64,000 bases of DNA from positions 2,839 to 66,838 of the forward strand of contig JBOIDF010000001.1 in NCBI GenBank assembly GCA_050740455.1. Reading direction: 5' to 3'. The notes beneath the pieces were generated by a model. That model did not search any database and was not told the DNA's origin. It was given only the letters and a program-made list of their open reading frames with translations. Made by a program: the position numbers and the translations under genes. The DNA is from Gammaproteobacteria bacterium (GTDB lineage: Bacteria; Pseudomonadota; Gammaproteobacteria; JACCXJ01). Below, piece after piece: positions 1-17,010 of the stretch. The stretch's first letter is position 1. Every line of letters begins with the position of its first letter.

Positions 1-534
1 TCTCTTGTAAGCGATATCGAGCGCGAACTCCGTGATCTTTTTTTTCAATCTAGTTTGCCTCGTCTATTACGTTACGAGGATCGAAATGCCATGTATTGGT
101 CAATTGAAAATCGTGTGCCGTTTTGTACAAAAAGTTTAGTTGAGGCAGCGTTCTCACTCCCAGTCGGCAGCCTGCTTTCGCCTTTTGGTGTAACCAAACG
201 TGTTCTGCGCGCGGCTTTGCGTGGTATCGTTCCCGATATCATTTTGGACCGGCGTGACCGTATTGGATTCTTTACCCCGGAAGCTAGCCTTGTACTTAAT
301 TCTTCTAACTTCGTAACACAGTTATTCAATGAGTTTCCAGCCGATTGGTTACCGCAAATCGATTTTACCAGCATGCGGAAAACCTGGCGTGATATATCGG
401 AAGGGAAGGCGCCTTATAGGCCTGTGGTATGGCGCTGGATTAGTCTATGCCTATGGGCACGCGCTTTGCGCGAGCAACCTGCTGCTACCGCATTAACTAG
501 CTATACAAACAAATACGCCCTCGAAGAAGAGTGA
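1..534 (+). CDS. Asparagine synthase (glutamine-hydrolysing)-like amidotransferase, C-terminal part; 5' end lies outside the window
   Basis: The reading frame is open from base 1; the listed ORF start at 55 is TTG. The C-terminal block ...LRYEDRNAMYWSIENRVPFC... resembles the AsnB C-terminal synthetase domain (the xDRxxMxxSxExRxPFLD motif). Stop is at 534. Confidence 0.6.
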   Translation, partial: SLVSDIERELRDLFFQSSLPRLLRYEDRNAMYWSIENRVPFCTKSLVEAAFSLPVGSLLSPFGVTKRVLRAALRGIVPDIILDRRDRIGFFTPEASLVLNSSNFVTQLFNEFPADWLPQIDFTSMRKTWRDISEGKAPYRPVVWRWISLCLWARALREQPAATALTSYTNKYALEEE

Positions 535-544
535 AAATCGACGC

Positions 545-1624
545 TCAATCCTCTCCCTTCTTCCTGCCTCTTCCAGTGGGGGAAACGGCGCTAGAATCGG
601 TTTGAACGCATTCACTATAGGACTGGTATCGTGTTTTTCTAATCAGCGCAAAGTCTTGGTTAAATGCGCGGATAGAACTAGCGTTGAAGTATTCTGCTGA
701 GCGCTCCATAAAACATCCTTCGCTAATATGATCTAATTCATTCACGGGATAGCCGTAAGCTTTAAGCAGGCCTAAAAAGCTGATCCGCTGTCCGTCCGGG
801 CAGACAAGCTCTGAATCGTAGAGAAAGGCAAGTTCGCGATTTGAAAGTTCGTGATCGAACGACAAATCCGCGAATATCTGTCCGCTGTATTGATAAGCCC
901 GCCACTGCTCAAGCCGGAAGATTCCCGAACGGTATTCATTGGTTGTATAGGTTTTGAGAATATCGTCGGGATCGATATCGATACCCGCGCTTTTCGCGAT
1001 TCTTGTGGTTATCTCAAAGGGCGATGCTACCAGATCCTCATAACGAATTTCGATGAGCCGTGGCGAAGTGCGATAACGTCGGACAGCATCGACTTCCCGC
1101 AACCAAATCAAGGCGCTTTCGAATAGACTATAGCCGCGTCGTTTTAGCGACGCGACTACCGATCGGCCATCGCGGACGATATGAATGAACCAGTCCTTTG
1201 GAAAAGCTGCTAGATAAGCTCCGACGGTGCTGGCATTGTGCGGGGTCTTTTCCGCAAAGGCACGTATTTCACGACCCCTGAATCGCGCACAATGATGCGC
1301 GAAACGATAAATGAACTCCGGTAGTGTTTCGGCACCAGCGATTAACTCATTAAGGGTGTTTTGATTAAGTCCAATCTGAGCCAGATAACGGGTGTTGAAA
1401 AAACGAGAGCGGTGGCTGGTAGCGGACGCTAGGGGAAACGCGGATCGATTGAGTGCCTCCTGCTTGAAGTCGTTATCGTACTGATAAGCGCGCTCGACGC
1501 ACAGAATATTGAGCTCGGGTCCGCATAGGAGTCCCGGACCAGAGTCGAGTAAGTCCGCAAGCAGCGTGCTGCCGCTGCTCGGGCAACAACCAACCGCAAT
1601 AATGGGGAGCTGTAAGGGCTGCAT
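545..1624 (-). CDS. Sulfotransferase family protein (PAPS-dependent, P-loop-like N-terminus)
   Basis: 359 aa. N-terminal GCCPSSGSTLL 5'-PSB-like loop, a KTPHN..RDGRSVVAS 3'-PB-like region, and overall sulfotransferase-domain architecture. Lies in the low-GC island. Confidence 0.55.
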   Translation of the reverse strand: MQPLQLPIIAVGCCPSSGSTLLADLLDSGPGLLCGPELNILCVERAYQYDNDFKQEALNRSAFPLASATSHRSRFFNTRYLAQIGLNQNTLNELIAGAETLPEFIYRFAHHCARFRGREIRAFAEKTPHNASTVGAYLAAFPKDWFIHIVRDGRSVVASLKRRGYSLFESALIWLREVDAVRRYRTSPRLIEIRYEDLVASPFEITTRIAKSAGIDIDPDDILKTYTTNEYRSGIFRLEQWRAYQYSGQIFADLSFDHELSNRELAFLYDSELVCPDGQRISFLGLLKAYGYPVNELDHISEGCFMERSAEYFNASSIRAFNQDFALIRKTRYQSYSECVQTDSSAVSPTGRGRKKGED

Positions 1625-1627
1625 CGA

Positions 1628-3382
1628 TTAAAGTGTGAGCGACACCGTTTGTGCTTGGTCCATGGCGATAACATAACGATCAAGTTCGTTATCTGAGCCG
1701 GCATCGGGTAGGACATCAACAGAAGCCTTGAAAGGGGATTTTGAAGGTACCTTAATCTCCAAAAAACACTTGCCAGCGCTGGTGATCGTGAGGTTGCGTC
1801 CAGTACCCTCTGGCGCAACCGTTCCGCTCGTATGATAGGTTGACCTGACGGCGGCGACGTGATCGCATAAGCGGCGCACGACGGCACCTTCTGCTCGCCA
1901 AGCGTCGAGCCTCTCTTCCAGGGCGGGTGAAAAAAGGTCGGGGTGATTCGCGACTATCAGGTGCCCGCGATATCGTCGAATCAACCGCTCGTGGGAGTCC
2001 GCCCAGTACGGAGGCGATTCGACTGGTAGGGGCCGTTGAGTAAGCACGAGACCCGTGTCGCGGTCAACTTCAGGGTGAGGTACCCACTCCGTGAGCCGTT
2101 CGCCGTAAGTAAGCTTTAACGATGCCAAGGTGGATATCGTGCGGTGTCCTTGCCAGAGGCTGGCGTCTTGTCCCCCATGGTTTGTGGTGCCGAAGATTGG
2201 CGCACTGACCTCCGCACGCAATCGATCAAGGAATCCGTGGTCTCCGTTTTCCACATGGCAGACGTGCCACCCGATCTCATCGCCGGATCCTGCTGCTATA
2301 TACGCCACCTCCCTGCAATAGGTCTCTGGCTTGAAGAACCATGTCGCTTGAAACCCGTGTGTTTTCTGCCAAGCGACGTGTCGTGCCATTCCTTGACGAT
2401 CAAGAGGCCGGTCGACGTCCCGGCGCAGCGATAGCACGAATGGTGCCCACGGGGGTGCTGGTAATATCCTCAACGATACGCCAAAAGTTTCCAGTGCGGC
2501 AGCTTCAATGCGTTGTTCTGCTTCAACGGCGAGAATCTCCCGCAATGCATCTGGCGGATGACGGGATAAGCCACGCGGTAGCTCGGGCACAGTCGAAAGA
2601 ACGTTAAGGACCCCGAGCAGGCCGCCGGACTTCGGCGGTAGAGGAATGACAACATGATCTTGGGGCGCACTGACGGAGATCACGAGAGTATGCGCCAACA
2701 TGATCAGAGCCTCGATCGCCACGGGATCCGTGAGATATCGCTTGGGTTGCTGATCGATGTCATCAAGGGTAAAAAGTCCGGCGGTTCGGTCAAAAAACCT
2801 GGTGAACAACAGTTCCACCAATTTTCTCCAGGTGTGGCCGCCCCTGGCGATCTGTGCAAGCAGTTCGGGCCCCTCGCCGCGTGGCAAGCCCGGCCGGAGA
2901 CTTCTCCCGCACTGCCACCGTTCCTCGGGTTGAGGTATAGAACCCGTTGCCAAGACGGCCTTTATCCGGCGCGTATCGACATTGACGAAGTTAAGCTCCG
3001 TTTGGAGATGCTCAACGACCTTCGATAAGCGCCAGACAGTGTATGGGTTCAGCGGTTTGCCCCGCTCCAAACGCACTGCAAGGAGGTTGAGCTGGCTCGC
3101 CAGCAGTTCAGGCACCAACGCCCTGAGCGACGCATCGTCGGTGATCGGATTCGGAGAAAGAAGGACGGCAGGATAGCTTGACCGCAGCGGGTAGCTACGG
3201 GCTTCCGGCCATGCACCGGGCGGTTCCGGAACAGACAACGCGCGACGGATCATAGTACGAAAATAGTCTCCGCCAATACCCAGTAGAGGGCCAAAACCCA
3301 GGGCACGCAGCAAGTGCTCGATGACTTGATCACCTCCCGGGGATTGCCTGGAAGCGGAATGACCGGCATTAATGGAGTTCAC
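1628..3382 (-). CDS. Polysaccharide deacetylase-like (CE4/NodB-fold) domain protein
   Basis: 584 aa. Block ...FQATWFFKPETY...GDEIGWHVCHV..NHGG... resembles CE4 motifs (TWF, H-x-x-x-H). It is a paralog of the next gene, and its start overlaps the neighbour's stop by 4 nt. Confidence 0.45.
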   Translation of the reverse strand: MNSINAGHSASRQSPGGDQVIEHLLRALGFGPLLGIGGDYFRTMIRRALSVPEPPGAWPEARSYPLRSSYPAVLLSPNPITDDASLRALVPELLASQLNLLAVRLERGKPLNPYTVWRLSKVVEHLQTELNFVNVDTRRIKAVLATGSIPQPEERWQCGRSLRPGLPRGEGPELLAQIARGGHTWRKLVELLFTRFFDRTAGLFTLDDIDQQPKRYLTDPVAIEALIMLAHTLVISVSAPQDHVVIPLPPKSGGLLGVLNVLSTVPELPRGLSRHPPDALREILAVEAEQRIEAAALETFGVSLRILPAPPWAPFVLSLRRDVDRPLDRQGMARHVAWQKTHGFQATWFFKPETYCREVAYIAAGSGDEIGWHVCHVENGDHGFLDRLRAEVSAPIFGTTNHGGQDASLWQGHRTISTLASLKLTYGERLTEWVPHPEVDRDTGLVLTQRPLPVESPPYWADSHERLIRRYRGHLIVANHPDLFSPALEERLDAWRAEGAVVRRLCDHVAAVRSTYHTSGTVAPEGTGRNLTITSAGKCFLEIKVPSKSPFKASVDVLPDAGSDNELDRYVIAMDQAQTVSLTL

Positions 3383-5106
3383 GGCATCGATTGTTTCGTG
3401 TTCGGCTCGATGGCAATGGCCACCGTGGATGTAGAACCGTTTGAGGACAGAACTACTCTCGGTTGAGCCTCGGCCAAGTTGACGTGGGCTACGCGGGTCC
3501 CCTGAAGCAGGACGACGGAGTGAGCATTATCGCCGTGCCCGATAGAGAGTGTCGCGGAGTACGGTAAGGGTTGTCCCCAGGTCAAAGACATGCTTCGCGT
3601 ACCGTCCTTACGGTAGACGCAATTGCGCGCGAGTGCCCAGCTTGCGACTTCGGCCATTGTCGCTGGCCATACACCGGCGAGATCGAGGCCGTTGGATAGC
3701 GCGATCATTTCTTCGATGTGTATGTCGGGGTGATTCATGATCACACAGTGTTCTCCGTTGGCGAGCGCTTTCGCTGATTCGGGAAGCAATGTGCTCAGGC
3801 AGTGGCCCTCGGGACGCGTACTCCGATCCAGGCCGCGGTGCCGCGCGGGAAGTACGAGGCTCGACGCAGTCGGAATGTCATTATCCACGACGATTGCCAA
3901 GGTCGGTAAAGATATATGGCCGCCCAGAAGCTCGCCGTAGGACATGCCCGATGCTTGAGCCCAGCGAATCTGATGCTGGCCTAAATAGCCTGCCGCGCCA
4001 CCGCCGCCGTGAGCCGTGTATCCAGCAACGGGAACATCCGCCTGTTCCCGAAAAAACTTTATTTCCCTCTCATACCATTGACCGAAATCGAATGCCTCGG
4101 TATGCAACGCTATCTCATGTCCGGCGGAAGTTACCTCGCCAATAAGTTCCGGGTGATAGGAAGCGACGCGCCAAAACCATGTGGATTTGATGCCTCGCTC
4201 CACATAGCATTGAAGCAGACGGGAGATATCCGCCCGCTGTTTTTGAACTTTCGGCGTATCGAATTTTAGATCTCTATCGAAGTCGTGGCGAACCGTCAGG
4301 CAAGCGCACTTCGAATGCGGCCATCGGTCTACGGCTATGGTTACCCTATCGTGCCGTCTGAACCATGCCTCGCTGGCGCTGAGTAACCAGCGTTCAAGCG
4401 GTTCAAGGTTGGACCAAGCGGTCATGGCATAGTAACCGTGCGGGTAGGGGGGCATTAGGTGGTGCTGTACCATGATGTCAAGCAGCGGCACGCCGAACAA
4501 CAAATGCGGTCCGCTGCGCACCCCAAGTACGTAACGCAATCCTGATGTGTCTACGCCCCAGACTATTGGATCGCCATCGTTCAACCGTTCAAACGCCTGA
4601 AAGCGGAATGTCTGTGGCGTCCAACGGCGATCGTCGGCTTCGAAGGGGTAGGGTTCGGAGATTTCAGTGCGGTTCGCGGGGATGCGCCGCAAAGATACTC
4701 GGTTAAAACGCAATGTGCCAAGATGCTCACCCTGCCCGTCGAAAAGTTCCAGCTGTTCGGCCATTAACATGCGCGTGGCTATCTCGAGGTGTGAGAGTAC
4801 CGAAGCGGCAAGCGGGCCTTCAAAAACCAAAGGCAGGCTGCTAAATGATTCCTGCCAGGCTGTTGAGCGCGTAACAAAACCGAATGCTTGGGCAGTGGCT
4901 GGCGAGGGTGTTTCTACCCGGGAGAGAATCCAACCGTATTTCTTTAAAATGACCTCGAAAGCGGCGCTGAAATAGAACCGGCATTCGTCATTTTGGACCG
5001 ATCGAACGAGCGAATCAGGTGGACGGAAGATCAGCATGGTAGCATATGGCGACTGCTGTTTCTCGGGGCGTGCAATCGATCTTAGTTCCAAGGACACCGA
5101 TGCCAA
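3379..5106 (-). CDS. Polysaccharide deacetylase-like (CE4/NodB-fold) domain protein
   Basis: 575 aa. Contains ...LTVRHDFDRD...IKSTWFWRVASYHPELIGEVTSAGHEIALHTE..., CE4-like motifs. Confidence 0.5.
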   Translation of the reverse strand: MASVSLELRSIARPEKQQSPYATMLIFRPPDSLVRSVQNDECRFYFSAAFEVILKKYGWILSRVETPSPATAQAFGFVTRSTAWQESFSSLPLVFEGPLAASVLSHLEIATRMLMAEQLELFDGQGEHLGTLRFNRVSLRRIPANRTEISEPYPFEADDRRWTPQTFRFQAFERLNDGDPIVWGVDTSGLRYVLGVRSGPHLLFGVPLLDIMVQHHLMPPYPHGYYAMTAWSNLEPLERWLLSASEAWFRRHDRVTIAVDRWPHSKCACLTVRHDFDRDLKFDTPKVQKQRADISRLLQCYVERGIKSTWFWRVASYHPELIGEVTSAGHEIALHTEAFDFGQWYEREIKFFREQADVPVAGYTAHGGGGAAGYLGQHQIRWAQASGMSYGELLGGHISLPTLAIVVDNDIPTASSLVLPARHRGLDRSTRPEGHCLSTLLPESAKALANGEHCVIMNHPDIHIEEMIALSNGLDLAGVWPATMAEVASWALARNCVYRKDGTRSMSLTWGQPLPYSATLSIGHGDNAHSVVLLQGTRVAHVNLAEAQPRVVLSSNGSTSTVAIAIEPNTKQSMP

Positions 5107-6223
5107 TTAGATTTCGTTTAAAACAACGGCGATACTCAAGCGGATCGATAAGCCTGCAGGTGTATCCAGCTGATAGAAACCAACCAATTATTTCGTGGAA
5201 CGAGTGGCGATGGGCGAAGAGACAGGTCCAGCGGTCACGCATGGAATGCTCGGAATGTCGAAAACGCCAGACATCCTTTTTCAAGCCTTTGCGACGATAT
5301 TTCCGAAAGTGTTGCAGGGCCAGTAGCTTTACGAAGATACTCTGTAGCGGTTCCGGGAGCCTTGCGATCTTAGGGCGCAAAAAGAGTTCTGCAAGATAAC
5401 CGAGTTTTTTCGCGAGCTTCCCGCGTTGTGCGTCTTCCAAGGCGTAGACCCATATGTAGATATCCGCATGAGGTGCAGCGAACCGCCGTGCGCTAGCGAA
5501 TGCACGCTCCGTATTATAGGTATGATGTAGCACGCCGTGGCTGTATACAAGATCAAAGCTCTCCGGCGCGAATGGTGGCGCGAAGACCGACGCGATGCCA
5601 TTGTGTGCGAGCGGACAGGCCTTAAGGCGCGCGGCTACGCGTAGGATGGACGTGTTCAGGTCAATTCCGAAAACCATCCGCTCTGTGACCTGTGCTAAGA
5701 ACATACTCTCTAGCCCCGAGCCGCAGCCAATGTCCAAGGTTTTGAATCCATTGGCGGGCGGGGCGGTCCTTGGCCAGCAGAGTTCTAATCTGATGAAATC
5801 GCAACGTTCCTCATGGTTGTACGTAAACGTTAGTTCATCGCCTTCATCGATGCTTGCCCATTCTGCGGTAAAGCTCTTCTGCGTAAGTAGCTCGCCGGGA
5901 CGTGGCTTTGCGTCCGGCCTGCGGCGGCCGCGCCACGCATGGTGGTGCTGGGCATTTTCCGCTTCGAACCGATCGATGAGCGCATTGTTGAAATCCAAGA
6001 GTATTGGAACGCCGCGATCAATGGGATACCAGTAACCGGCGCTTTCGCTCAAGAGGACGCCGCTATTGATCTGTCGGCTAAAGTCGTTAACCGTGAAACC
6101 GAGAGCTTCTAATCTACCCTGATCTTCTTGGGATAAGGCCACATCTTCTTCCTCGAAGGGTAAGAGATGTAGCGGTTCGCCGCTAATCGGGCAGCGATAA
6201 ATGGACGACGCCCAGACCTTCAT
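5015..6223 (-). CDS. Class I SAM-dependent methyltransferase with N-terminal Trm112-like zinc-ribbon
   Basis: 402 aa. The N-terminus has a CPISGEPL Trm112-like motif. The central LDIGCGSGLESMFLA is SAM-binding motif I, followed by ..DLVYSHGVLHH.. Confidence 0.65.
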   Translation of the reverse strand: MKVWASSIYRCPISGEPLHLLPFEEEDVALSQEDQGRLEALGFTVNDFSRQINSGVLLSESAGYWYPIDRGVPILLDFNNALIDRFEAENAQHHHAWRGRRRPDAKPRPGELLTQKSFTAEWASIDEGDELTFTYNHEERCDFIRLELCWPRTAPPANGFKTLDIGCGSGLESMFLAQVTERMVFGIDLNTSILRVAARLKACPLAHNGIASVFAPPFAPESFDLVYSHGVLHHTYNTERAFASARRFAAPHADIYIWVYALEDAQRGKLAKKLGYLAELFLRPKIARLPEPLQSIFVKLLALQHFRKYRRKGLKKDVWRFRHSEHSMRDRWTCLFAHRHSFHEIIGWFLSAGYTCRLIDPLEYRRCFKRNLIGIGVLGTKIDCTPRETAVAICYHADLPST

Positions 6224-6282
6224 CCCATTTGCACTTTATATTTAGCCGGCGCTATAGATTAGGAGCGATAGAGGCAACGATT

Positions 6283-7491
6283 TTACTCGCCTCGTTGGAT
6301 GACACGAAACAGCGTACGCGCTCCTGCACTAGATGCCGGTATCTCGACTGTGGCAGTCGATAGGTAATACTTGATGTCACCGAACGGCGCCAAAAGCTCA
6401 TCGAGCTCTTGCGATTCAAACATGATGTCGAAATCACGTTGGTATTGCTGCGATTTGATATTCTCGTGGACTATGAGTAACCCGCCCGGGTTAAGTGATT
6501 TCCACGCCCGCTGTAGGGTCCGGGCGCGCCGTTCTCGCGGCACGTAAAGCAAAGACCCAACAAAGCTGATGATGTCGTATCGTTCCGGGAACGGATACTC
6601 CTCGGCGGGGGATAAAGCATAGCGCAAGCGACCCTTCAATTCCGTTTCAAAGTATCGGTAAAGAAAATTGCCGATGTATAGGTTGAACGGCGCAATATCG
6701 CAACAGACGGCCTGTTGTATTCCGGTCGAATGGTCGAGCAGCATTTCAGCACAGAGCAATCCATATCCGCCCCCTACGTCACACAATGCTAGCCTGTTTC
6801 TTCTGGTTAAATATTGGTGGATGATGGCTCGGATGACGGCGCTCTTATAGGATATTCCCCAACAATAATAGACTTGTTGCAAGAACGCGTCTTTGAGGGT
6901 TGTGGCGGCCAATCTGCTTTGAGAATCTACCCAATCGGTAGGCAGCAGGAAGTCATTAAAAAGCTCGAAGCTATCGTCGGTCGCACGCACGACTTGGCGA
7001 TCGGGCCAAGAGTATTGCTCGATCGACACCCGTGTCACCGCGCTCAAAAACCAATCCAGCGTGGAAGGAGCGGATGGCGGGGCCGGTTCGGTAAAAACGC
7101 TCGCATAACTTGGATGGTTATCGTGTAGGTTAACCGCGCCAAGCTTTTCACGCAGTAACTCAGCCGACCAATAGCCCTTTTTTTGTGCCTCGGCGTGATT
7201 CGTTATGGGTAAGAGCAACTCTCCCCCGGGGTGTACCGATTTCAATAGGGACCTTAACAGGCACGATCCCCAATTATTGGAGAATAGTCGAAGGCTGCGC
7301 CCAACCATAATCGACGCGAATGCTCTCGCGGGCATGGGAAACAAAATATTCCCCACGCCGGACGGTTCCCACGGAAACCCGAGTGCCTCCGACGTCAGGG
7401 TGAAGCGTCGTGCGGATTTAAAATGATGATGAGGGAATCCTTGTTCATCGGCGTCTTTGTGAGCGATGTCGTAATGCAAGCTCGCGTGCAA
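6283..7491 (-). CDS. Class I SAM-dependent methyltransferase
   Basis: 402 aa. LCDVGGGYGLLCAEML is motif I, and ..DIISFVGSLLYV.. follows. The divergent AT-rich region 7492-7804 is upstream. Confidence 0.6.
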   Translation of the reverse strand: MHASLHYDIAHKDADEQGFPHHHFKSARRFTLTSEALGFPWEPSGVGNILFPMPARAFASIMVGRSLRLFSNNWGSCLLRSLLKSVHPGGELLLPITNHAEAQKKGYWSAELLREKLGAVNLHDNHPSYASVFTEPAPPSAPSTLDWFLSAVTRVSIEQYSWPDRQVVRATDDSFELFNDFLLPTDWVDSQSRLAATTLKDAFLQQVYYCWGISYKSAVIRAIIHQYLTRRNRLALCDVGGGYGLLCAEMLLDHSTGIQQAVCCDIAPFNLYIGNFLYRYFETELKGRLRYALSPAEEYPFPERYDIISFVGSLLYVPRERRARTLQRAWKSLNPGGLLIVHENIKSQQYQRDFDIMFESQELDELLAPFGDIKYYLSTATVEIPASSAGARTLFRVIQRGE

Positions 7492-7804
7492 GATGGTAAG
7501 TCCTCTTTTAGTCGAATCGGCGGAGGAGGTCAGTGCTGATGTTTTTTTGTCGCTTATTTCGCCGTCGGTTGCCGTTTCCGCGCATATTAATTGGGCCTCG
7601 CTCGTGTGTGATGCTGGTTGGAAAAAATTCCGGGCAAACCGTATACTACTAGCGTAGATTATGAGCTAAGGCGACAACGGGACGGCGAAATACTAACAAA
7701 GTTCTCCTAATAAATATTGGAAGCAGGTTGCTCGTGTCAAACTCGATCAAGAATCTTTCTCAATGCCAAGCAACGCTGGCCTGAATCAATGCTGTTTATA
7801 AATA

Positions 7805-8947
7805 TTGTCACGATGCCGGGAGATCGTGATCGTCTATTCGAGTCAACTGCGCATGGCTGAAATTGTACCATTGCCATCGAGACGATGGCGCAGGGCCGAA
7901 AATATTCTCAAGATTGCGCTAAGCAAACTGCGACGCAAGATGATGATCTTGCGTTCGGCCCTTTCGCCCGGTTCGACCCATGACGCTATGGATATCATGG
8001 TCCGGGTGCTGCGACTAAACGATCGGCAGATCAATAAGATTAAGATGCTTGCCGAAGTGCGTAACGAGTCGCTGGATACGACATTGCGCCGGACGCTGTC
8101 GAACTTAGTAAGCACCATACCTAAGCGCGTCGCACCTATGAACGTCTTGCGGGCGCTGGACTATAGGGACATCCGCACGGAAGATGGCTTGGTAAGGATT
8201 GAGTTAAGCAACGGGCGCATCTTTTATAATTATCCCTCGCGTACCCGTTATGTGCATATCTACGGAGCGCTACGCGATATCGTCCCTCGCGGTTTGAAAG
8301 CCGAAACCTATCAGCCGGCGACCGACGTCGTGAAAAGATATGCGTGGGGCGCCCATGGAGGTTATTTTCCGGGACCCGGTGGCGTCGTGATAGAAGGGGG
8401 GGCGTTCATCGGCCTCAAGGCAATCCGGATGGCCGAAGCGGTTGGACCCAGCGGAAAAGTCATCGCTATCGAGATTGGACGCCGAAACTTCGAGGTCATG
8501 TGTCGCAATATCAATGCAAATGGCATGGAGCACATTATTACCCCACTGCACTGCGGCATCTGGAAAGAACCCGGTCAGATGGAGGCAGAGTTCGAATACG
8601 CTAATGCCTACCATCTGGCGAAACCTGATGAGCACGACTGGTGTACGCGCAAAGAAACGGTAGAAACTACGACGTTAGACGATATCATCGATCAACAACA
8701 ACTGGAAACTGTTGATTATCTCAATCTTCAGTTGAATGGGGCAGAGTACGAAGGCCTGCTCGGTCTCAAACGGCGACTTAACGATGTGAAAATTCTTTAT
8801 GTGGCAGCGTATTACACTCGTAACGGCGTACGCCAGGTCGAGGCGGTTTCAAATCTGCTAAAGAGCAAAGGCTGCAAGCTGCTGGTCGTGTCACCATTAG
8901 GTTCAATAACTGCCGTGACGCCCCGCTTCTCAGCAGGATATGGGTGA
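7805..8947 (+). CDS. FkbM-family methyltransferase
   Basis: 380 aa. GGVVIEGGAFIGLKAIRMAEAVGPSGKVIAIE plus ..LNLQLNGAEYEGLLGL.. match the FkbM domain. The 5' start is uncertain. Confidence 0.6.
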   Translation: MSRCREIVIVYSSQLRMAEIVPLPSRRWRRAENILKIALSKLRRKMMILRSALSPGSTHDAMDIMVRVLRLNDRQINKIKMLAEVRNESLDTTLRRTLSNLVSTIPKRVAPMNVLRALDYRDIRTEDGLVRIELSNGRIFYNYPSRTRYVHIYGALRDIVPRGLKAETYQPATDVVKRYAWGAHGGYFPGPGGVVIEGGAFIGLKAIRMAEAVGPSGKVIAIEIGRRNFEVMCRNINANGMEHIITPLHCGIWKEPGQMEAEFEYANAYHLAKPDEHDWCTRKETVETTTLDDIIDQQQLETVDYLNLQLNGAEYEGLLGLKRRLNDVKILYVAAYYTRNGVRQVEAVSNLLKSKGCKLLVVSPLGSITAVTPRFSAGYG

Positions 8948-9244
8948 GGGAGATACGACTAACTTCCCGAGCCAGTGCGATGCGAGATCGTCGTAACCAA
9001 GGTGTGGAAACAATGAGAGGCAAAGCCTAAGATAGGCGCAGCCACTGGGCACACCTTTGATGATTCGGATCTCGAAGATTTCACAAATTTGTACCAGCTC
9101 TCCGACTCTGATCGGGGTCGTTCCGACATCAAGGAATTTACGGTCAAACTCCACACAACTTCCGCTTTTGACGGTATCTTAGAAACTCCGGCCGAGCTGA
9201 AAGCCACCATTTAAGTATGTAGCGTAGTACGTTACACTACGAAA

Positions 9245-9530
9245 GTGATCCGAAGCTTCCGGCATAAGGGTTTGGCCGCCTTCTTTATGGAGGGCGACGC
9301 CAAAGGCATCCGGCAGGATCAACGGAAGCGATGCCAAATACGGCTGAACGCCTTATGCCGCCTCGACATTTGAGGATTTGAACATCCCCGGCTTTGACCC
9401 ACACTTGCTACACGGCAAGCCCTCGCGTTACGCGATCAAGGTCAACGGGCCGTGGCGGATCACCTTTGAATGGGTCGATGGCGATGCATGGCGCGTTGAC
9501 TTGGAACAATTCACTGAGATTGAACAATGA
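9245..9530 (+). pseudogene. higB: higB (RelE/ParE-fold toxin) disrupted by a frameshift
   Basis: A GTG at 9245 opens VIRSFRHKGLAAFFMEGDAKGIRQDQRKR.., a HigB N-terminus, which runs into TGA at 9371. The HigB C-terminus (..NIPGFDPHLLHGKPSRYAIKVNGPWRITFEWVDGDAWRVDLEQ) continues in the +1 frame (9366-9530) and overlaps the higA start in ATGA. Confidence 0.6.
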
Positions 9531-9850
9531 GCACGAAGCACGAGTATCCTGTCAAGCGTGACCCGAAACTGCCACCGACGCACCCCGGCGAACTATTGAA
9601 GGAAGACGTGTTACCCGCCTTGGGTTTGTCGGTGTCGGAAGCCGCCCGTCAGTTGCGGGTAAGTCGTCAGACCTTGCACCGCATTTTGTCGGGTGCAATG
9701 GCGGTAAGCCCAGAGATGGCTTTGAAGTTGGGCCGGTTTTGCGGTAACGGTCCTGATCTGTGGCTACGCATGCAGATCGCCTATGACCTATGGCACGCCG
9801 AACGGCGGATCGGAAAAGAACTCAAGCTGATCCCGGGACGAGCGGCGTAG
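9527..9850 (+). CDS. higA: HigA-type HTH (XRE) antitoxin
   Basis: 107 aa. The sequence ..HPGELLKEDVLPALGLSVSEAARQLRVSRQTLHRIL.. is typical of HigA, and the gene sits immediately downstream of the higB remnant. Confidence 0.8.
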   Translation: MSTKHEYPVKRDPKLPPTHPGELLKEDVLPALGLSVSEAARQLRVSRQTLHRILSGAMAVSPEMALKLGRFCGNGPDLWLRMQIAYDLWHAERRIGKELKLIPGRAA

Positions 9851-10274
9851 CGCAACGGCAACATCACGCCCCGCCCGAGGGCGAAACCGCTTTTCTTACT
9901 AGGTAGATCGTTTCTCCAATTCATTTACGTTATGGCAGTCTTGAATATCGCCTCGGAACGCTATAGGTCGTCATACCTGCGAAAGCAGGTATCCAGGATT
10001 TATGCCGGTTTGCTGGATGCCAGCTTCCGCTGGCATGACGGCCGTTCTTGGAATTCAAGTCGTAAACGTTTATATAAAACACACTACTAGGAAAGCTACT
10101 GACCATCATGAACGCCATGCTGAAAAACAATAGCGCCTGGAACCCGAAAACCGCTTGACATGGAACACGGTTGCTCTCCCGGTGGGAGAGGGAGTTCTTA
10201 AATTTCAAATATTTGTGGCTAGGCTTTCGTCGATGTCGGAAAGGCTTTCTCGCTCGAGGTGGGGCAAACAAGTT

Positions 10275-10856
10275 ATGGACGTAATCGGTGCCTCGCTCGG
10301 GCTCGCCTTGAGTGCCTTGCCGATGCTCCTCATCGCCCTCTCGATCCTGGTGACGATGGGGCGTCCCATCCTCTTCCGGCAAACGCGCCCGGGATTGCGG
10401 AGGGTGCCTTTCGACATCCTCAAATTTCGAACGATGCGGTGCTCGGCGGGAGCCCTCAATGAGTCTGACGAAGCACGGCTCACGCCGCTCGGGCACTTCT
10501 TGAGGAGCTTGAGCCTTGATGAGTTACCCGAGCTTTGGAACGTGCTGAAGGGCGAGATGAGCCTGGTCGGTCCGAGGCCGCTGCTGATGGAATACCTCAA
10601 TCTCTATTCCCCGGAACAAGCGCGCCGGCAGGAAGTGAAGCCGGGGATCACGGGCTGGGCCCAGGTCAACGGGCGGAACGCGCTCGGCTGGCGGGAGCGG
10701 TTTGAGTTGGATGTCTGGTATGTCGATCATCAAAACCTCTGGCTCGACGCGAAGATCCTTCTCCTAACCGCCGGCGCCATGCTGCGCCGGAAGGGGATCA
10801 ACGCGGAGGGCCACGCGACCATGCCGCCCTTTAGGGGAAACAATGCCGGAGGGTAA
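10275..10856 (+). CDS. Bacterial sugar transferase (PglC/WbaP-C-like initiating phosphoglycosyltransferase)
   Basis: ..MGRPILFRQTRPGL..FDILKFRTM..LDELPELWNVLKGEMSLVGPRP.. is the hallmark of the small phosphoglycosyltransferase family. There is an internal ATG with an upstream GAGGTGG. Confidence 0.85.
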   Translation: MDVIGASLGLALSALPMLLIALSILVTMGRPILFRQTRPGLRRVPFDILKFRTMRCSAGALNESDEARLTPLGHFLRSLSLDELPELWNVLKGEMSLVGPRPLLMEYLNLYSPEQARRQEVKPGITGWAQVNGRNALGWRERFELDVWYVDHQNLWLDAKILLLTAGAMLRRKGINAEGHATMPPFRGNNAGG

Positions 10857-11481
10857 TCCTGTATATATTTTGGGCGCCGGAGGTCATGCCAAGGTCGTGG
10901 CGAGTACGCTGCTCGCGGCGGGATACCGCGGGGCGGGCTTTTTCGATGACGATGCCGGCAAGTGGGGACAGACCGTGTTGGGGCTGCCCGTGCTCGGAGA
11001 TCTCAGCCAAGCACTGCGTATTGAGGGGGGGATGACGGCGGTCATCGGAATCGGCGACAATAAGCGGCGCCGGGAGATAGCCACAACCTATACGAATATC
11101 AAGTGGCTCAGTATCGTCCATCCCCGTGCCTATGTGCATCCTACGGTGCGGCTTGGCCGGGGAACGGTGATTTTCGCGGGTGCCGTGATTCAAGCGGACG
11201 CCCGGATCGGAGAGCATTGCGTCGTGAATACCCTGGCCTCCGTGGATCACGATTGTAACATCGGGGCGTTTGTGCACATTGCCCCCGGTGCTCATCTCGC
11301 GGGTAACGTCCTGGTCGGGGAGGGCGTATTGATTGGGCTTGGCAGCAGCGTGATGCCCCATGTGTCGATCGGGGCCCGCACGGTGGTCGGGGCCGGATCG
11401 GCGGTCGCCGGCAACTTACCTCCGGATGTGACCGCAACCGGCCTACCGGCACGTATTCTCAAGATCCGCCGACATGCTTAA
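10843..11481 (+). CDS. Sugar N-acetyltransferase (PglD/NeuD-like, left-handed beta-helix)
   Basis: N-terminal VYILGAGGHAKVV is a Rossmann-like loop, followed by hexapeptide repeats (..GAVIQADARIGEHCVVNT..). Confidence 0.8.
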   Translation: MPEGNPVYILGAGGHAKVVASTLLAAGYRGAGFFDDDAGKWGQTVLGLPVLGDLSQALRIEGGMTAVIGIGDNKRRREIATTYTNIKWLSIVHPRAYVHPTVRLGRGTVIFAGAVIQADARIGEHCVVNTLASVDHDCNIGAFVHIAPGAHLAGNVLVGEGVLIGLGSSVMPHVSIGARTVVGAGSAVAGNLPPDVTATGLPARILKIRRHA

Positions 11482-12598
11482 ACCGATCGCCATGTCCGCC
11501 GCGGATTTGGATGATACCGATCTGCAGGCAGTGCACGATGTGCTGCGTTCCGGCCGCCTGGCCCTCGGGCCCAAGGCGGAGGAATTCGAAAACCTCATGG
11601 CCGGCTATATTGGGGTCCGGCATGCGGTCGCGGTGAATTCCGGCACCGCGGCCTTGCATTTAATCCTGTGCGCCTTGGGCATCGGTCCCGGCGACGAGGT
11701 GTTGGTGCCATCGTTTACCTTCGTCGCCAGCGTCAATGCGATCCTCTATGTGGGCGCGGCGCCGGTGTTCGTGGATATCGAGCCCGAGACCTACACGCTG
11801 GATGCGGGCGATCTGGAGTCCAAGATCACGCCCAAGACCAAGGCGGTCATGGCGGTCGATGTGTTCGGTCACCCGATCGAATGGGAGGATGTTTTAACTA
11901 TCGCAGGGCGCCACGCTCTGGTCGTGATCGACGACTCGGCGGAAGCGCTCGGCGCGGAATATCGGGGAGAGAAGATCGGCCGATTCGGTAGCGCCGCCGT
12001 GTTTGCGTTCTATCCGAACAAGCAGATCACCACCGGCGAGGGCGGCATCGTGGTCACCAACGATGACGGCCTGGCCCGCGTAGTACGCAGCCTGCGCAAT
12101 CAAGGGCGAGACGCGGAGCACGCGTGGTTGCAACATGAGCGGCTCGGGTACAATTACCGCATGAATGAAATGTCGGCCGCCCTGGGCGTATCGCAACTAC
12201 GAAAGATCGACCGCATCCTGTCGAGGCGGAATCACGTCGCGAAAATGTATACGGAGCGTTTGAGCTTACTCGATCTGGTGCGGCCGCCGGTGATCAAACC
12301 GCAGGTGACGATGAGCTGGTTCGTGTATGTGGTGACCTTGGCGGATGGGCTAGACCGCAACGCCCTGATCCATGCGCTGGAGCGGCAGAGCATTCCCGCG
12401 CGGGGATACTTTAGTCCGATTCATCTCCAGCCGTTCATTCGCGAGCGCTTCGGCACCAAGCCCGGGATGTTGCCCATCACCGAATCGGTGGCGAAACGCA
12501 CCCTAGCCCTACCGTTTCACAATCGCATCACCGAAGCGCAGGTGGACCAGGTGGTTACAGGGCTTGAAGAAGCCGTGAAGCGTGGTAACGCGGCCTAA
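11474..12598 (+). CDS. DegT/DnrJ/EryC1/StrS aminotransferase (PglE-like)
   Basis: 374 aa with typical PLP-dependent sugar aminotransferase blocks (..AVNSGTAALHL.., ..GYNYRMNEMSAALGVSQL..). Confidence 0.85.
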   Translation: MLKPIAMSAADLDDTDLQAVHDVLRSGRLALGPKAEEFENLMAGYIGVRHAVAVNSGTAALHLILCALGIGPGDEVLVPSFTFVASVNAILYVGAAPVFVDIEPETYTLDAGDLESKITPKTKAVMAVDVFGHPIEWEDVLTIAGRHALVVIDDSAEALGAEYRGEKIGRFGSAAVFAFYPNKQITTGEGGIVVTNDDGLARVVRSLRNQGRDAEHAWLQHERLGYNYRMNEMSAALGVSQLRKIDRILSRRNHVAKMYTERLSLLDLVRPPVIKPQVTMSWFVYVVTLADGLDRNALIHALERQSIPARGYFSPIHLQPFIRERFGTKPGMLPITESVAKRTLALPFHNRITEAQVDQVVTGLEEAVKRGNAA

Positions 12599-12609
12599 GA
12601 GGGGAACGC

Positions 12610-15498: not shown

Positions 15499-16074
15499 CA
15501 TGTTTATGGTCCTACTGGGGATCACTGGGGAGATACATCTTGGCTTTGTCGAGCGCGTAGCTTCAAGGAAAGCCGCTCACCTGCCAGTCGTTGGCCGGGA
15601 AACGTGCGGGAACTAACGAATGTCGCCGAGTATCCCTTTGCCGTGGGGCGGGGGGCGAGATCCGGCTCTCCGAGTTTCGGGAGCCAAGGACGTTCCGACT
15701 CGGAATTATGGTTTTCTGGCCACATGGTTTGGCTTTACAGCTCTCGCAGGAACGCAGCCAGGTCCTACTTCTCGGCTTCGGTAAGCTTGATTCCCAGCAC
15801 CAGATTGAAGAATTATACCGTATCGTCCAGAGTGAGCAGCCGTCCATCATGCAGGTAGGTCGGCGAGTCCCTAATGCCGCGTAGCGGGAAAGTGCCGTCG
15901 GCCGAGTCCATCCGGCCATTGATCATCTGCGGCTTGTAGAAGCGCTCGACCTTAGAAGCACGCCGGGGCAGGCTGGCGTATAATCATGGGTGCCTGGAAT
16001 TTCCCAGGCGGGGCTCGTACGAGCGCCGGCCGAAGGCTGGCCGGGCCCGAAGGGCGAAAATCAAGGAGGACAGA

Positions 16075-16310: not shown

Positions 16311-16329
16311 TCATCGCGGTGATATTCCC

Positions 16330-16993: not shown

Positions 16994-17010
16994 GATTTTT
17001 TCACAAGCTC
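16994..17010. repeat. Solo MITE terminal inverted repeat (GATTTTTTCACAAGCTC)
   Basis: Matches the right terminal inverted repeat of the MITE at 22168-22310. Confidence 0.5.

What the first reader, a model, noticed from the sequence alone, without database searches (positions are those of the whole stretch)
1..9244. Lower-GC glycan-tailoring island abutting a high-GC pglCDEF-type core
Bases 1-9200 are visibly AT-richer than the rest, with intergenic stretches such as 7492-7804 near 40% GC. They carry only glycan-decorating functions: an AsnB-like amidotransferase, a PAPS-type sulfotransferase, two CE4 deacetylase-like proteins, Trm112-MTase, MTase and FkbM-MTase. The adjacent high-GC pglC/D/E/F-like genes make a 2,4-diacetamido-2,4,6-trideoxyhexose (bacillosamine/QuiNAc4NAc-type) primer. 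The combination predicts a sulfated, O- or N-methylated, partly de-N-acetylated glycan (O-antigen, capsule or protein glycan). The composition parallels NodB/NodH/NodS chemistry. The compositional break coincides with a decayed higBA and REP-like hairpins, suggesting horizontal acquisition.
Basis: partly seen in the sequence, partly recalled or inferred. Interest (0 to 1): 0.6.

Follow-up and report, generated by a model that had tools for sequence, protein, structure and literature searches.

The report
Low-GC sugar-decorating genes in variable glycan locus
The AT-richer first 10 kb of this window is the right-hand end of a roughly 32-kb, species-variable cell-surface sugar locus in an uncultured soil and cave methane-oxidiser relative; the layout is ordinary for such loci, but it carries an unusual, largely uncharacterised set of sulfate-, methyl- and deacetylase-type tailoring enzymes.

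Summary
Bases 1-10,290 are 53.3% GC against 61.3% for the rest, and codon third-position GC (GC3) is 44-61% against 68-79%. All the gene calls hold, including the two "CE4-like" proteins. Pfam misses these, but high-confidence structure models match CE4 deacetylases.

Three corrections:
- The break lies at about 10,222-10,290, at the pglC start, not 9,244.
- The low-GC block runs about 13 kb past the window's left edge. It belongs to a roughly 32-kb glycan locus between aat and pglF, with two more sulfotransferases, a heparinase II/III-like protein and 2,3-diacetamido-sugar genes. No Wzx, Wzy, PglB or PglL is in it.
- The block is not a recent private acquisition. A sister lineage has it at the same site with synonymous divergence close to that of the flanks. 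Between these two lineages the exchanged parts are pglC-pglD and a heparinase-like gene. Bases 9,047-10,221 (frameshifted higB, intact higA, one 80-nt hairpin) are a private insertion at that junction.

Four species-level relatives carry different genes upstream of pglF, so this is a hypervariable O-antigen-type locus.

The most interesting element is the five-gene operon methyltransferase, methyltransferase, CE4-like, CE4-like, sulfotransferase. It recurs as a rare module in unrelated bacteria, sometimes as CE4-like/methyltransferase fusions.

Verdict: a new variant of a known kind, of moderate interest.

The parts
1..534 (+). 3' end (last 177 codons plus the stop) of a 658-aa AsnB-type glutamine amidotransferase. 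The gene starts at window position -1442.
   Evidence: PF00733, E 9e-21. The full-length gene in L027 18508-20484 has GATase_6, GATase_7 and Asn_synthase domains and scores 403 bits on TIGR01536.
545..1624 (-). PAPS-type sulfotransferase, 359 aa. It is the last gene of the five-gene tailoring operon.
   Evidence: PF13469, 78 bits against a cut-off of 27. By inspection, a 5'-PSB-like loop CPSSGST and a 3'-PB-like RDGRSVVAS motif are present. No TM segment or signal peptide.
1628..3382 (-). 584-aa protein with a divergent CE4/NodB-fold domain (about residues 305-520), a unique helical N-terminal half and a C-terminal beta-sandwich. It belongs to a rare family.
   Evidence: No Pfam or NCBIfam hit. 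AF2 pLDDT 88. Foldseek top hits are CE4 proteins: BA3943, ArnD (8t0j) and WbmS (3hft). Only 166 representatives with E<=1e-3 among 1.84 billion proteins. hhalign to the 552-aa family gives 99.3% probability.
3379..5037 (-). 552-aa protein with a CE4/NodB-fold central domain (about 240-470), an N-terminal beta-rich domain and a C-terminal beta-sandwich. The ORF as listed (to 5106) is 575 aa. The called start gives 552 aa.
   Evidence: AF2 pLDDT 93, pTM 0.93. Foldseek hit to 3rxz polysaccharide deacetylase, E 5e-8, and about 20 further CE4 structures. The profile against PDB gives 3rxz at E 1.3e-6, with RHDFDR aligned to TFDVD, GHEIALH to GHEIAHH and NHPD to NHPF. There are 44 homologues, several fused to methyltransferases.
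5015..6223 (-). 402-aa class-I SAM methyltransferase with an N-terminal extension of about 150 aa (weak Trm112-like match). It overlaps the next gene by 23 nt.
   Evidence: PF08241, E 3e-14. Trm112p E 0.009, below threshold. Gene spacing.
6283..7491 (-). 402-aa class-I SAM methyltransferase with an N-terminal domain of about 220 aa. It is the first gene of the operon.
   Evidence: PF13649 and PF08241. It is 35% identical over nearly its full length to the C-terminal half of P0039, a natural fusion with a 552-family CE4-like domain. Homologues lie beside CE4-like genes in L036, L038 and L040.
7492..7852 (.). AT-rich divergent intergenic region between the minus-strand operon and fkbM. It is presumably the promoter region.
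   Evidence: 45.4% GC over 7492-7804. The role is inferred from position only.
7853..8947 (+). FkbM-family methyltransferase, 364 aa from the ATG at 7853, with an N-terminal extension of about 175 aa.
   Evidence: TIGR01444, 64.3 bits against a cut-off of 37.7. PF05050, E 4e-8. Called as 364 aa in the source record.
9047..10221 (.). Lineage-specific insertion of 1,175 bp at the junction between the variable block and pglC. It contains frameshifted higB (9245-9530), intact higA (9527-9850) and one 80-nt inverted-repeat hairpin (9966-10044).
   Evidence: DNA homology to the sister lineage stops at 9046. Homology to USCg_Taylor and the Lehman Caves MAG starts at 10222. HigA and HigB matches. Hairpin.
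10233..10856 (+). PglC-type small phosphoglycosyl transferase, 207 aa, which starts the glycan on the lipid carrier. The GC change point at 10,290 falls in its 5' end.
   Evidence: PF02397, E 1.6e-59. One N-terminal hydrophobic segment. Only 68-70% identical to the sister lineage (dS 2.2) but 86% identical to USCg_Taylor.
10843..11481 (+). PglD-type N-acetyltransferase.
   Evidence: PglD_N plus Hexapep domains. TIGR03570, 222 bits against a cut-off of 160.8.
11474..12598 (+). PglE-type (DegT family) sugar aminotransferase.
   Evidence: PF01041, E 8e-123. 90-94% identical in four of the seven species-level relatives (68% in L011, no orthologue in L008 or L009) and in the sister lineage.
12610..14496 (+). 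PglF/WbpM-type membrane-anchored UDP-GlcNAc 4,6-dehydratase. It is the conserved right-hand anchor of the locus.
   Evidence: PF02719, E 1e-115, plus CoA_binding_3. 91-94% identical in seven species-level relatives whatever lies upstream.

Best explanation
**What it is.** Window 1-10.2 kb is the right-hand third of a roughly 32-kb surface-glycan biosynthesis locus. The locus runs from window -17.3 kb to +14.5 kb, between the core genes aat/ate/infA and MBL/leuS. The organism is an uncultured gammaproteobacterium related to the USC-gamma clade of atmospheric methane oxidisers.

**How it most likely works (inferred).**
1. PglF, PglE and PglD make a UDP-2,4-diacetamido-trideoxyhexose (bacillosamine type). 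PglC puts it on undecaprenyl phosphate.
2. A WbpB/WbpD-like fusion, a DegT aminotransferase and a WecB-like 2-epimerase make a 2,3-diacetamido sugar, probably a uronic acid. A 503-aa GT4 glycosyltransferase adds it.
3. Soluble enzymes then tailor the lipid-linked glycan on the cytoplasmic face. AsnB amidates a carboxyl group.
4. The tightly packed operon MT402b, MT402a, CE4-like 552, CE4-like 584, sulfotransferase 359 removes N-acetyl groups, methylates, and sulfates from PAPS. FkbM adds a further methylation.
5. The finished glycan is exported and attached by genes that are not in the locus.

**Evolution.** The low GC reflects the usual atypical composition of variable O-antigen-type loci that are exchanged by homologous recombination through conserved flanks. 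The block was already present in the common ancestor shared with a sister lineage. The junction next to pglC is a recombination and indel hot spot that picked up a higBA cassette.
For: **Shown by tool results.**
- Composition break.
- Enzyme families.
- CE4 fold of both unknown proteins and their mutual homology.
- Operon spacing of 59, -23, -4 and 3 nt, with no signal peptides or TM segments in the tailoring enzymes.
- Full locus content, with no Wzx, Wzy, Wzz, Wzm/Wzt, PglB or PglL among the called genes.
- Seven relatives share PglF at 91-94%. The four with upstream sequence carry other genes there: a WbpL-type transferase, formyltransferase, Wzm, GT2, HisH/F-like and Capsule_synth genes. 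These regions are also lower in GC.
- The sister lineage has the same locus at the same site. Flanks are 95-97% identical at the DNA level and the island is 91-95% identical. dS is close to that of the flanks and dN/dS is 0.16-0.36.
- Homology breakpoints at 9046 and 10222.
- Functional coupling. The CE4-like domain is fused to class-I methyltransferases in P0019, P0021, P0026, P0029 and P0039. The P0039 methyltransferase half is 35% identical to MT402b.
- The module WecB-like epimerase + GT4_503-like transferase + MT402b-like + CE4-like, with or without a sulfotransferase and Wzm/Wzt, recurs in unrelated contigs of 47-71% GC.

**From the literature.**
- Bordetella wbm/wlb loci combine diacetamido-uronic acids, glutamine amidotransferases for uronamides, terminal-sugar modification genes, low GC and recombination (PMC2615507, PMC3849452).
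- Lipid-linked glycans are sulfated in the cytoplasm before flipping in Halobacterium (PMC12624080).
Against: - No enzymatic activity, substrate or glycan structure is known. The organism is uncultured.
- The CE4-like proteins miss Pfam PF01522 and have non-canonical motifs (RxDxDR instead of TFDD). In the 584 family the first metal-binding His is not conserved, and its best structural match is a CE4 pseudoenzyme. One or both may therefore be inactive or act on another group, such as O-acetyl or N-formyl as in ArnD.
- Only one GT plus PglC is present for nine tailoring enzymes, and no flippase, polymerase or ligase was found. The pathway as drawn is incomplete.
- The sister lineage has an extra GT4 next to pglC that this genome lacks. 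The window's version could be a truncated variant.
- WbpA (UDP-GlcNAc 6-dehydrogenase) was not seen in the locus, so the uronic-acid assignment rests on AsnB alone.
Confidence: 0.65

Rival explanations
1. Terminal-cap model. The tailoring enzymes do not decorate every unit. They build one heavily modified capping residue at the non-reducing end of an ABC-transporter-dependent polymer. This cap would terminate the chain and be recognised by the exporter, as with WbdD/Wzt in E. coli O8/O9a and the capped Bordetella O antigen.
For: - In unrelated organisms the CE4-like genes sit next to Wzm/Wzt ABC-2 transporter genes (L025, L034, L036).
- One homologue (P0038) is fused to an ABC ATPase domain.
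- There are many modification genes but very few glycosyltransferases.
- The Bordetella precedent has a capping sugar and middle-of-locus genes that modify the terminal residue (PMC2615507, PMC3849452).
Against: - No Wzm/Wzt lies within -20 to +14.5 kb of this locus.
- The only membrane protein in the block is a 596-aa protein. It resembles an ABC exporter by eye only, with no Pfam or PDB sequence match.
- Three sulfotransferases and three methyltransferases are many for a single residue.
Confidence: 0.3
2. Recent horizontal acquisition. The 1-9.2 kb block was imported from a lower-GC donor into this genome next to a resident high-GC pglCDEF core, and the higBA remnant and hairpins mark the insertion scar.
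For: - The GC and GC3 break is real.
- The block is absent in four species-level relatives.
- The module occurs in unrelated taxa.
- A private 1.2-kb higBA insertion sits at the junction.
Against: - The sister lineage carries the block at the same site, with dS close to that of the core flanks (0.10-0.24 against 0.09-0.12). The block therefore predates the split.
- Between these lineages it is pglC, pglD and the heparinase-like gene that show allele replacement (dS 0.5-2.2).
- No tRNA gene in the window and no integrase or transposase family among the called genes.
- The relatives' alternative gene sets at this site are also low in GC. Low GC is therefore a property of the locus, not of one import event.
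Confidence: 0.15
3. Decaying or non-functional cluster. After losing a glycosyltransferase next to pglC and picking up toxin-antitoxin debris, the locus no longer makes the full glycan, and the CE4-like proteins are pseudoenzymes.
For: - higB is frameshifted.
- The GT4 and DUF4325 genes present in the sister lineage are missing here.
- The best structural match of the 584-aa protein is the CE4 pseudoenzyme BA3943. The first metal-binding His is Asp in this protein and variable in the family.
Against: - All tailoring ORFs are intact with tight operon spacing.
- dN/dS of 0.16-0.36 indicates purifying selection.
- RxDxDR, HGG and NHPD are invariant across distant homologues of both families. This argues for a conserved active site.
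Confidence: 0.1

Closest known systems
Bordetella wlb (band A trisaccharide) and adjoining wbm O-antigen loci
   Same: - A PglF/WbpM-type dehydratase (wlbL) sits at the edge of the locus.
- Genes of WbpB/WbpE/WbpD/WbpI type make 2,3-diacetamido-uronic acids.
- Glutamine amidotransferases make uronamides.
- A CE4-fold protein (WbmS, PDB 3hft) is among the structural matches of the 584-aa protein.
- Middle-of-locus genes modify the terminal sugar, with low GC, recombination breakpoints and serotype variation (PMC2615507, PMC3849452).

The wlb gene roles are from my own knowledge of the Bordetella and P. aeruginosa O5 literature.
   Different: - No sulfotransferases are known in wbm. Here there are three.
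- Wzm/Wzt are present in wbm and not found here.
- The CE4-like proteins here are twice the size, have extra N- and C-terminal domains and are not detectably similar in sequence to WbmS.
Rhizobial Nod-factor tailoring: NodB (CE4 de-N-acetylase), then NodS (N-methyltransferase), plus NodH (PAPS sulfotransferase)
   Same: The same three chemistries are encoded together. De-N-acetylation followed by N-methylation is the logic suggested by the natural CE4-like/methyltransferase fusions.
   Different: - No sequence-level membership. The only Nod-related hit is NoeE at 17 bits against a cut-off of 500.
- The substrate here is presumably a lipid-linked diacetamido-sugar glycan, not a chito-oligosaccharide.
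- The CE4-like proteins have a different architecture.
Campylobacter/Neisseria pgl bacillosamine pathway (PglF, PglE, PglD, PglC)
   Same: All four enzyme families are present, contiguous and co-oriented. PglD passes the NeuD/PglB/VioB model cut-off.
   Different: - No oligosaccharyltransferase (PglB or PglL), no PglA/H/I/J-type transferases and no recognisable PglK in the locus.
- In relatives, pglD is swapped for a formyltransferase and pglC for a WbpL-type enzyme.
- The stereochemistry of the product cannot be told from sequence.
Pseudomonas aeruginosa O-specific antigen locus (variable low-GC cassette anchored by conserved wbpM)
   Same: A conserved WbpM/PglF homologue sits at one end. Unrelated gene sets lie upstream in different lineages, the GC is lower than the genome, and at least one relative has a wbpL-wbpM arrangement (L009; L008 has the same ORF layout).

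The P. aeruginosa layout is from my own knowledge.
   Different: The left flank differs (aat/ate/infA rather than ihfB). There is no wzz, wzx or wzy here, and the tailoring content is sulfation, methylation and deacetylation.
Sulfated prokaryotic glycans: Halobacterium N-glycan (Agl30/Agl31) and the Cobetia marina sulfated capsule
   Same: PAPS sulfotransferases are encoded inside glycan clusters and act before export (PMC12624080, PMC11766843).
   Different: Those clusters include identified flippase or ABC transporter genes and, in Cobetia, PAPS-synthesis genes. None is in this locus. The sulfate importer at 54.7-62.2 kb of the window is about 45 kb away and is probably housekeeping.

Membership tests
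Carbohydrate esterase family 4 (NodB-homology polysaccharide deacetylases) | Distorted (beta/alpha) barrel NodB fold | tested here: met
   Models with pLDDT 93 and 88. Foldseek hits are almost exclusively CE4 structures: 3rxz at E 5e-8 for the 552-aa protein, and BA3943, ArnD, PdaA and PdaC at E 2e-5 to 1e-3 for the 584-aa protein.
Carbohydrate esterase family 4 (NodB-homology polysaccharide deacetylases) | Sequence match to the family model (Pfam PF01522 Polysacc_deac_1) | tested here: not met
   No Pfam hit at E<=0.01 for either protein. There is only a 20-bit local hit to TIGR03006 against a cut-off of 276. A family profile does reach PDB CE4 chains weakly (3rxz, E 1.3e-6).
Carbohydrate esterase family 4 (NodB-homology polysaccharide deacetylases) | Asp-His-His metal triad and catalytic Asp/His (motifs TFDD, H(S/T)xxH, LxH) | tested here: inconclusive
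   - 552 family: RHDxDR (D252, D254 invariant), H307 (at least 90% conserved), E308 and H312 invariant with H-x4-H spacing, and NHPDxH invariant.
- 584 family: RxDxDR, H373 and NHPD invariant, but the first-His position is Asp in this protein and variable in the family.
- The geometry could not be inspected.
Carbohydrate esterase family 4 (NodB-homology polysaccharide deacetylases) | De-N- or de-O-acetylase activity on a carbohydrate | not testable with these tools
   Needs an enzyme assay.
PAPS-dependent sulfotransferases (Sulfotransfer_3) | Family model above the gathering score, with 5'-PSB and 3'-PB PAPS-binding motifs | tested here: met
   PF13469, 78 bits against a cut-off of 27. CPSSGST and RDGRSVVAS are seen in the sequence. 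The motif reading is by eye.
pgl-type bacillosamine pathway / protein glycosylation locus | PglF dehydratase, PglE aminotransferase, PglD acetyltransferase and PglC phosphoglycosyl transferase together | tested here: met
   The genes are contiguous at 10233-14496 on one strand.
pgl-type bacillosamine pathway / protein glycosylation locus | Oligosaccharyltransferase (PglB or PglL) and flippase (PglK or Wzx) in the locus | tested here: not met
   No such Pfam families among the called genes from -20 kb to +21 kb. The rest of the genome could not be searched.
Hypervariable O-antigen/capsule-type locus | Conserved flanks, unrelated gene content between related lineages, GC below the genome | tested here: met
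   - PglF is 91-94% identical in seven relatives. Content differs in the four with upstream sequence, and GC there is 51-57%.
- The left-flank genes aat and ate are 95-96% identical to the sister lineage.
Classical mobile genomic island | tRNA or integrase at the border, direct repeats, mobility genes | tested here: not met
   No tRNA in the window. No integrase or transposase family among the called genes of the locus. Flanking direct repeats were not searched for.
HigBA type II toxin-antitoxin | Intact HigB toxin upstream of HigA antitoxin | tested here: not met
   HigA is intact (TIGR02607, 107 bits against a cut-off of 47.7). HigB is split into two frames at about 9370-9378.
REP / repetitive extragenic palindrome | Many copies of the palindrome in intergenic DNA of the genome | tested here: inconclusive
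   A stable 80-nt hairpin, but only one copy in the 64-kb window and none in the other loci apart from L001 and L003, which re-sample this same contig. The whole genome was not available.

The most novel reading that the evidence does not exclude
The operon MT402b, MT402a, CE4-like 552, CE4-like 584, sulfotransferase 359, possibly together with the two upstream sulfotransferases that carry an unexplained C-terminal domain with HDID, GLH, AHGYG and HPxNY motifs, may be a previously undescribed bacterial system.

In this reading it strips N-acetyl groups from lipid-linked di-N-acetylated sugars and re-derivatises the freed amines by N-methylation and N-sulfation. That would make it a natural prokaryotic counterpart of both NodB/NodS and the animal N-deacetylase/N-sulfotransferase (NDST).

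Diacetamido-trideoxy and diacetamido-uronic sugars have almost no free hydroxyls. Nine tailoring enzymes would therefore have few places to act other than nitrogen.
Probability: 0.2. Interest if true: 0.7.

Novelty: new variant of a known kind. Interest (0 to 1): 0.38.

Why it matters
As a compositional island it is textbook. Variable surface-glycan loci are regularly low in GC and exchanged by recombination, so the headline of the finding is ordinary.

Three things are worth keeping.

1. **Two unannotated CE4-fold families.** Neither has a Pfam model. The 584-aa family has only 166 representatives among 1.84 billion proteins. Their gene neighbours and domain fusions tie them to methyltransferases, sulfotransferases, a WecB-type epimerase and a specific GT4 transferase across unrelated phyla. 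This makes a concrete, testable candidate for deacetylation-dependent N-modification of bacterial glycans.

2. **Possible relevance to heparin manufacture.** Prokaryote-compatible N-deacetylases and NDST variants are actively being sought and engineered for that purpose (PMC13353177).

3. **A first view of surface chemistry in USC-gamma.** It predicts a sulfated, highly charged surface glycan, variable between species, in the uncultured USC-gamma group. That group is important for atmospheric methane uptake in soils and caves and is suspected to depend on extracellular polysaccharide and biofilm growth (PMC13333085).

Tried and rejected
- **Pfam and NCBIfam on the two large unknown proteins.** Nothing usable. 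Solved by structure prediction instead.
- **The 596-aa membrane protein upstream of the window.**
  - I read a degenerate ABC signature and Walker B by eye (LSDRDR...AIAFDE).
  - Pfam at E<=5, PDB phmmer at E<=1 and BLASTP against a real ABC exporter gave no significant support.
  - The ABC-exporter idea is kept only as a guess.
- **C-terminal domain of the 526- and 542-aa sulfotransferases as a CE4-like domain.**
  - hhalign probability is 1.9-5.6% against the 552 family and 21% against the 584 family. The motifs align in register but the match is not significant.
  - The PDB profile search hits only the sulfotransferase half.
  - Left open.
- **REP-element claim.** The hairpin sequences were searched with 3 mismatches in the window and a looser pattern in all loci. 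Only the one copy was found.
- **tRNA at the border.** None.
- **Classical 'recent HGT' reading.** Rejected because dS is close to that of the flanks.
- **Secondary-metabolite reading (AsnB as a lasso-peptide cyclase).** Considered and rejected. The AsnB scores 403 bits on the asparagine-synthase model against 210 bits (cut-off 525) on the lasso cyclase model, and every neighbour is a sugar enzyme.
- **Metagenome scan for the 584 family.** Only six distant relatives in 241 million records.

Full report

Yes. One-kb windows run at 47-59% GC up to 10 kb and at about 61% afterwards. A finer profile places the rise between 10,050 and 10,350.

Computed directly, 1-9,244 is 53.2% GC and 1-10,290 is 53.3%. 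The remainder is 61.3%. The best single change point is 10,290 (log-likelihood gain 115 nats).

Third-codon-position GC is 0.44-0.61 for the eight ORFs of the low-GC block (HigA, inside the private insertion, is 0.68). It is 0.68-0.79 for pglC-F and ten genes sampled across the rest of the window.

The intergenic stretch 7492-7804 is 45.4% GC rather than about 40%.

**2. What are the genes?**

Pfam and NCBIfam confirm the following:
- The AsnB C-terminus. The gene enters from the left edge of the window.
- A Sulfotransfer_3 protein.
- Two class-I methyltransferases of 402 aa each, and an FkbM methyltransferase.
- HigA.
- A small Bac_transf phosphoglycosyl transferase (PglC type).
- A PglD_N plus hexapeptide acetyltransferase. 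It passes the TIGR03570 cut-off.
- A DegT aminotransferase.
- A Polysacc_synt_2 dehydratase with the WbpM/PglF architecture.

The two large proteins (1628-3382 and 3379-5037, minus strand) have no family hit. Three lines of evidence place a CE4-type domain in both:
- They are distant paralogues: BLASTP E 2e-4, hhalign probability 99.3%, and 99.9% on the domain alone.
- AlphaFold models built on alignments of their homologues are confident, with pLDDT 93 and 88.
- Foldseek against the PDB returns almost only CE4 deacetylases for the central domain of each. The hits include 3rxz, chitin and peptidoglycan deacetylases, ArnD and Bordetella WbmS.

A profile of the 552-aa family also reaches 3rxz by sequence (E 1.3e-6). 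In that alignment RHDFDR lines up with TFDVD, GHEIALH with GHEIAHH, and NHPD with NHPF.

The proteins still fail the Pfam model, carry non-canonical motifs and have extra N- and C-terminal domains.

**3. Where does the window come from, and what lies beyond its edge?**

Exact-protein look-ups place the window on contig CDIABF010000018.1 of the MAG GCA_975305705.1. The closest species-level genomes are "Chromatiales bacterium USCg_Taylor" and cave and soil MAGs of the same group.

Walking left from the window gives the whole locus:

| Element | Notes |
|---|---|
| kdsB, cspA, infA, ate, aat | Core flank |
| HTH regulator | |
| WbpB/WbpD-like fusion | Oxidoreductase plus acetyltransferase |
| DegT aminotransferase | |
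| HEPN/MNT pair | |
| WecB-type 2-epimerase | |
| 503-aa GT4 | Glycosyltransferase |
| Two sulfotransferases, 526 and 542 aa | Each with an unexplained C-terminal domain |
| 596-aa polytopic membrane protein | |
| Heparinase II/III-like protein | |
| AsnB | Continues into the window |
| Window genes | |

Low GC runs from about -13 kb to +10.3 kb.

No Wzx, Wzy, Wzz, Wzm/Wzt, PglB or PglL family appears among the called genes.

**4. Comparison with relatives.**

Seven species-level relatives share PglF at 91-94% identity. None has any of the island genes within the sequence available upstream. The four whose contigs extend far enough carry other sugar genes there:
- L009 carries a WbpL/WecA-type transferase with an epimerase, a GT2, a cytidylyltransferase and Wzm. 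L008 and L011 share most of that gene order by ORF layout, but L011 keeps a PglC-type transferase.
- L006 and L011 carry PglC plus a formyltransferase in place of PglD. L006 also has HisH/HisF-like and capsule-synthesis genes.

Those regions are also at 51-57% GC.

This is the pattern of a hypervariable O-antigen-type locus anchored by a conserved wbpM/pglF. It is not a fixed pglCDEF core with an add-on.

**5. How old is the block?**

Two MAGs of a sister lineage (GCA_030154905.1 and GCA_030154825.1) carry the same locus at the same chromosomal site.

DNA identity is 95-97% in the flanks and 91-95% through the island. It is about 80% over the heparinase-like gene, which is inverted, and 69-79% over pglC-pglD.

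Nei-Gojobori estimates:

| Genes | dS | dN/dS |
|---|---|---|
| Island genes | 0.10-0.24 | 0.16-0.36 |
| aat, ate, pglE (flanks) | 0.09-0.12 | 0.18-0.33 |
| Heparinase-like gene | 0.53 | 0.23 |
| pglD | 0.85 | 0.24 |
| pglC | 2.2 | 0.11 |

The tailoring block is therefore inherited from the common ancestor of the two lineages and is under purifying selection. The replaced segments are pglC-pglD and the heparinase-like gene.

Homology to the sister lineage ends at 9,046. Homology to USCg_Taylor-type genomes begins at 10,222, which is 11 nt before the pglC start. The 1,175 bp in between are private to this genome. That segment holds frameshifted higB, intact higA and one 80-nt hairpin.

The sister lineage has a GT4, a DUF4325 gene and small ORFs at that spot instead.

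The junction is a recombination and indel hot spot, not the scar of the island's arrival.

**6. How it probably works (inference).**

All tailoring enzymes lack signal peptides and membrane segments. The five minus-strand genes are spaced 59, -23, -4 and 3 nt apart. They therefore probably act together in the cytoplasm on a nucleotide-linked or undecaprenyl-linked glycan, before export.

The coupling of the CE4-like domain to methylation is supported by natural fusions. One of them (P0039) has a methyltransferase half that is 35% identical to MT402b over nearly its whole length.

Across unrelated contigs with GC from 47% to 71%, the same partners recur. They are a WecB-like epimerase, a GT4 31-54% identical to the 503-aa transferase, an MT402b-like methyltransferase and one or two CE4-like proteins. 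Often there is also a sulfotransferase-359-like protein and Wzm/Wzt.

This points to the sugar delivered by the epimerase/GT4 pair as the substrate, and to deacetylation followed by methylation, as with NodB and NodS. Whether sulfate goes on oxygen or nitrogen cannot be told.

The diacetamido sugars predicted here have very few free hydroxyls. That makes N-modification attractive but unproven.

**7. Comparison with what is known.**

The closest described systems are the Bordetella wlb/wbm loci. They share diacetamido-uronic acids, amidotransferases, a CE4-fold WbmS, terminal-sugar modification genes, low GC and recombination (PMC2615507, PMC3849452). The P. aeruginosa O-antigen locus anchored by wbpM is also close; that comparison is from my own knowledge.

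The chemistry parallels NodB/NodS/NodH. Cytoplasmic sulfation of lipid-linked glycans has precedent in Halobacterium (PMC12624080). Sulfated capsule clusters exist in marine bacteria (PMC11766843).

What differs here:
- The density of sulfotransferases, three in the locus.
- The architecture and rarity of the CE4-like proteins.
- The absence of export and polymerisation genes in the locus.
- The host, an uncultured methane-oxidiser relative whose surface chemistry is unknown (PMC13333085).

**8. Verdict.**

The function classes and the variability hold. The "recent acquisition next to a conserved pglCDEF core" does not.
- The finding is a new variant of a well-known kind of locus.
- Its real value is a rare, conserved tailoring module built around two unannotated CE4-fold families. 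This module deserves biochemical follow-up.

Noticed in passing
L027 10001-13317 (window -9949 to -6633): Two paralogous sulfotransferases (526 and 542 aa) carry a C-terminal domain of about 250 aa with no Pfam or PDB sequence match. Its invariant motifs are HDID, GLHxNAAER, AHGYGR and HPxNY.

It aligns in register with CE4-like motifs 1 and 2 of the 584-aa protein, but only weakly (hhalign probability 21%, E 1e-3).

If it is CE4-like, these would be natural sulfotransferase/deacetylase fusions. About 59 homologues exist, some annotated from Phycisphaerae.
   Followed up: partly
L027 13387-15177 (window -6563 to -4773): A 596-aa protein with about six hydrophobic segments in its first 330 residues and a soluble C-terminal domain.

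By eye it shows a degenerate ABC signature and Walker B (LSDRDR...AIAFDE) and no Walker A lysine. There is no statistical support from Pfam, PDB or BLASTP.

It is the only candidate exporter in the locus.
   Followed up: partly
L027 15255-17339 (window -4695 to -2611): The heparinase II/III-like gene is inverted relative to the sister lineage and is much more divergent (78% amino-acid identity, dS 0.53) than its neighbours. This suggests a separate allele exchange inside the locus.
   Followed up: partly
L027 6148-7070 (window -13802 to -12880): A nucleotidyltransferase (MNT-like) and HepT/HEPN-like pair, with weak Pfam matches, is inserted between the aminotransferase and the epimerase. It is absent from the sister lineage. 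Together with higBA this is a second toxin-antitoxin-type cassette inside the glycan locus.
   Followed up: partly
window 14635-19436: The right side of pglF is also variable.
- The MBL-fold gene (14635-15525) is missing in L007, L009 and L010 and duplicated in L008.
- The amidohydrolase (17985-19436) is missing in L009 and L010.
- A BrnT/CopG-like toxin-antitoxin pair at about 17118-17691 coincides with the GC dip to 51% at 17-18 kb.
   Followed up: partly
window 54668-62207: A porin O/P-family gene is followed by a complete sulfate ABC importer: sbp at 533 bits, then cysT, cysW and cysA. It lies about 45 kb from the sulfotransferase-rich locus. It is probably housekeeping, and no link was shown.
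   Followed up: no
window 31479-33821 and 38081-40399: A chaperone-usher pilus usher (Usher plus PapC_C domains) and a ComEC-type competence channel (Competence plus Lactamase_B domains) are encoded in the high-GC part of the window.
   Followed up: no
window 42987-45697: Adjacent RimK-like ATP-grasp (RLAN plus RimK domains) and GCS2 glutamate-cysteine-ligase-family genes. These would make a possible small peptide-ligase pair. Not examined.
   Followed up: no
L035 (Desulfovibrio sp. JC010, GCA_010470675.1) and L034, L036: In distant carriers, the CE4-like genes sit among radical-SAM enzymes, large hexapeptide-repeat proteins and further sulfotransferases (Sulfotransfer_2 and Sulfotransfer_3). 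This hints at a wider, uncharacterised glycan-tailoring toolkit.
   Followed up: no
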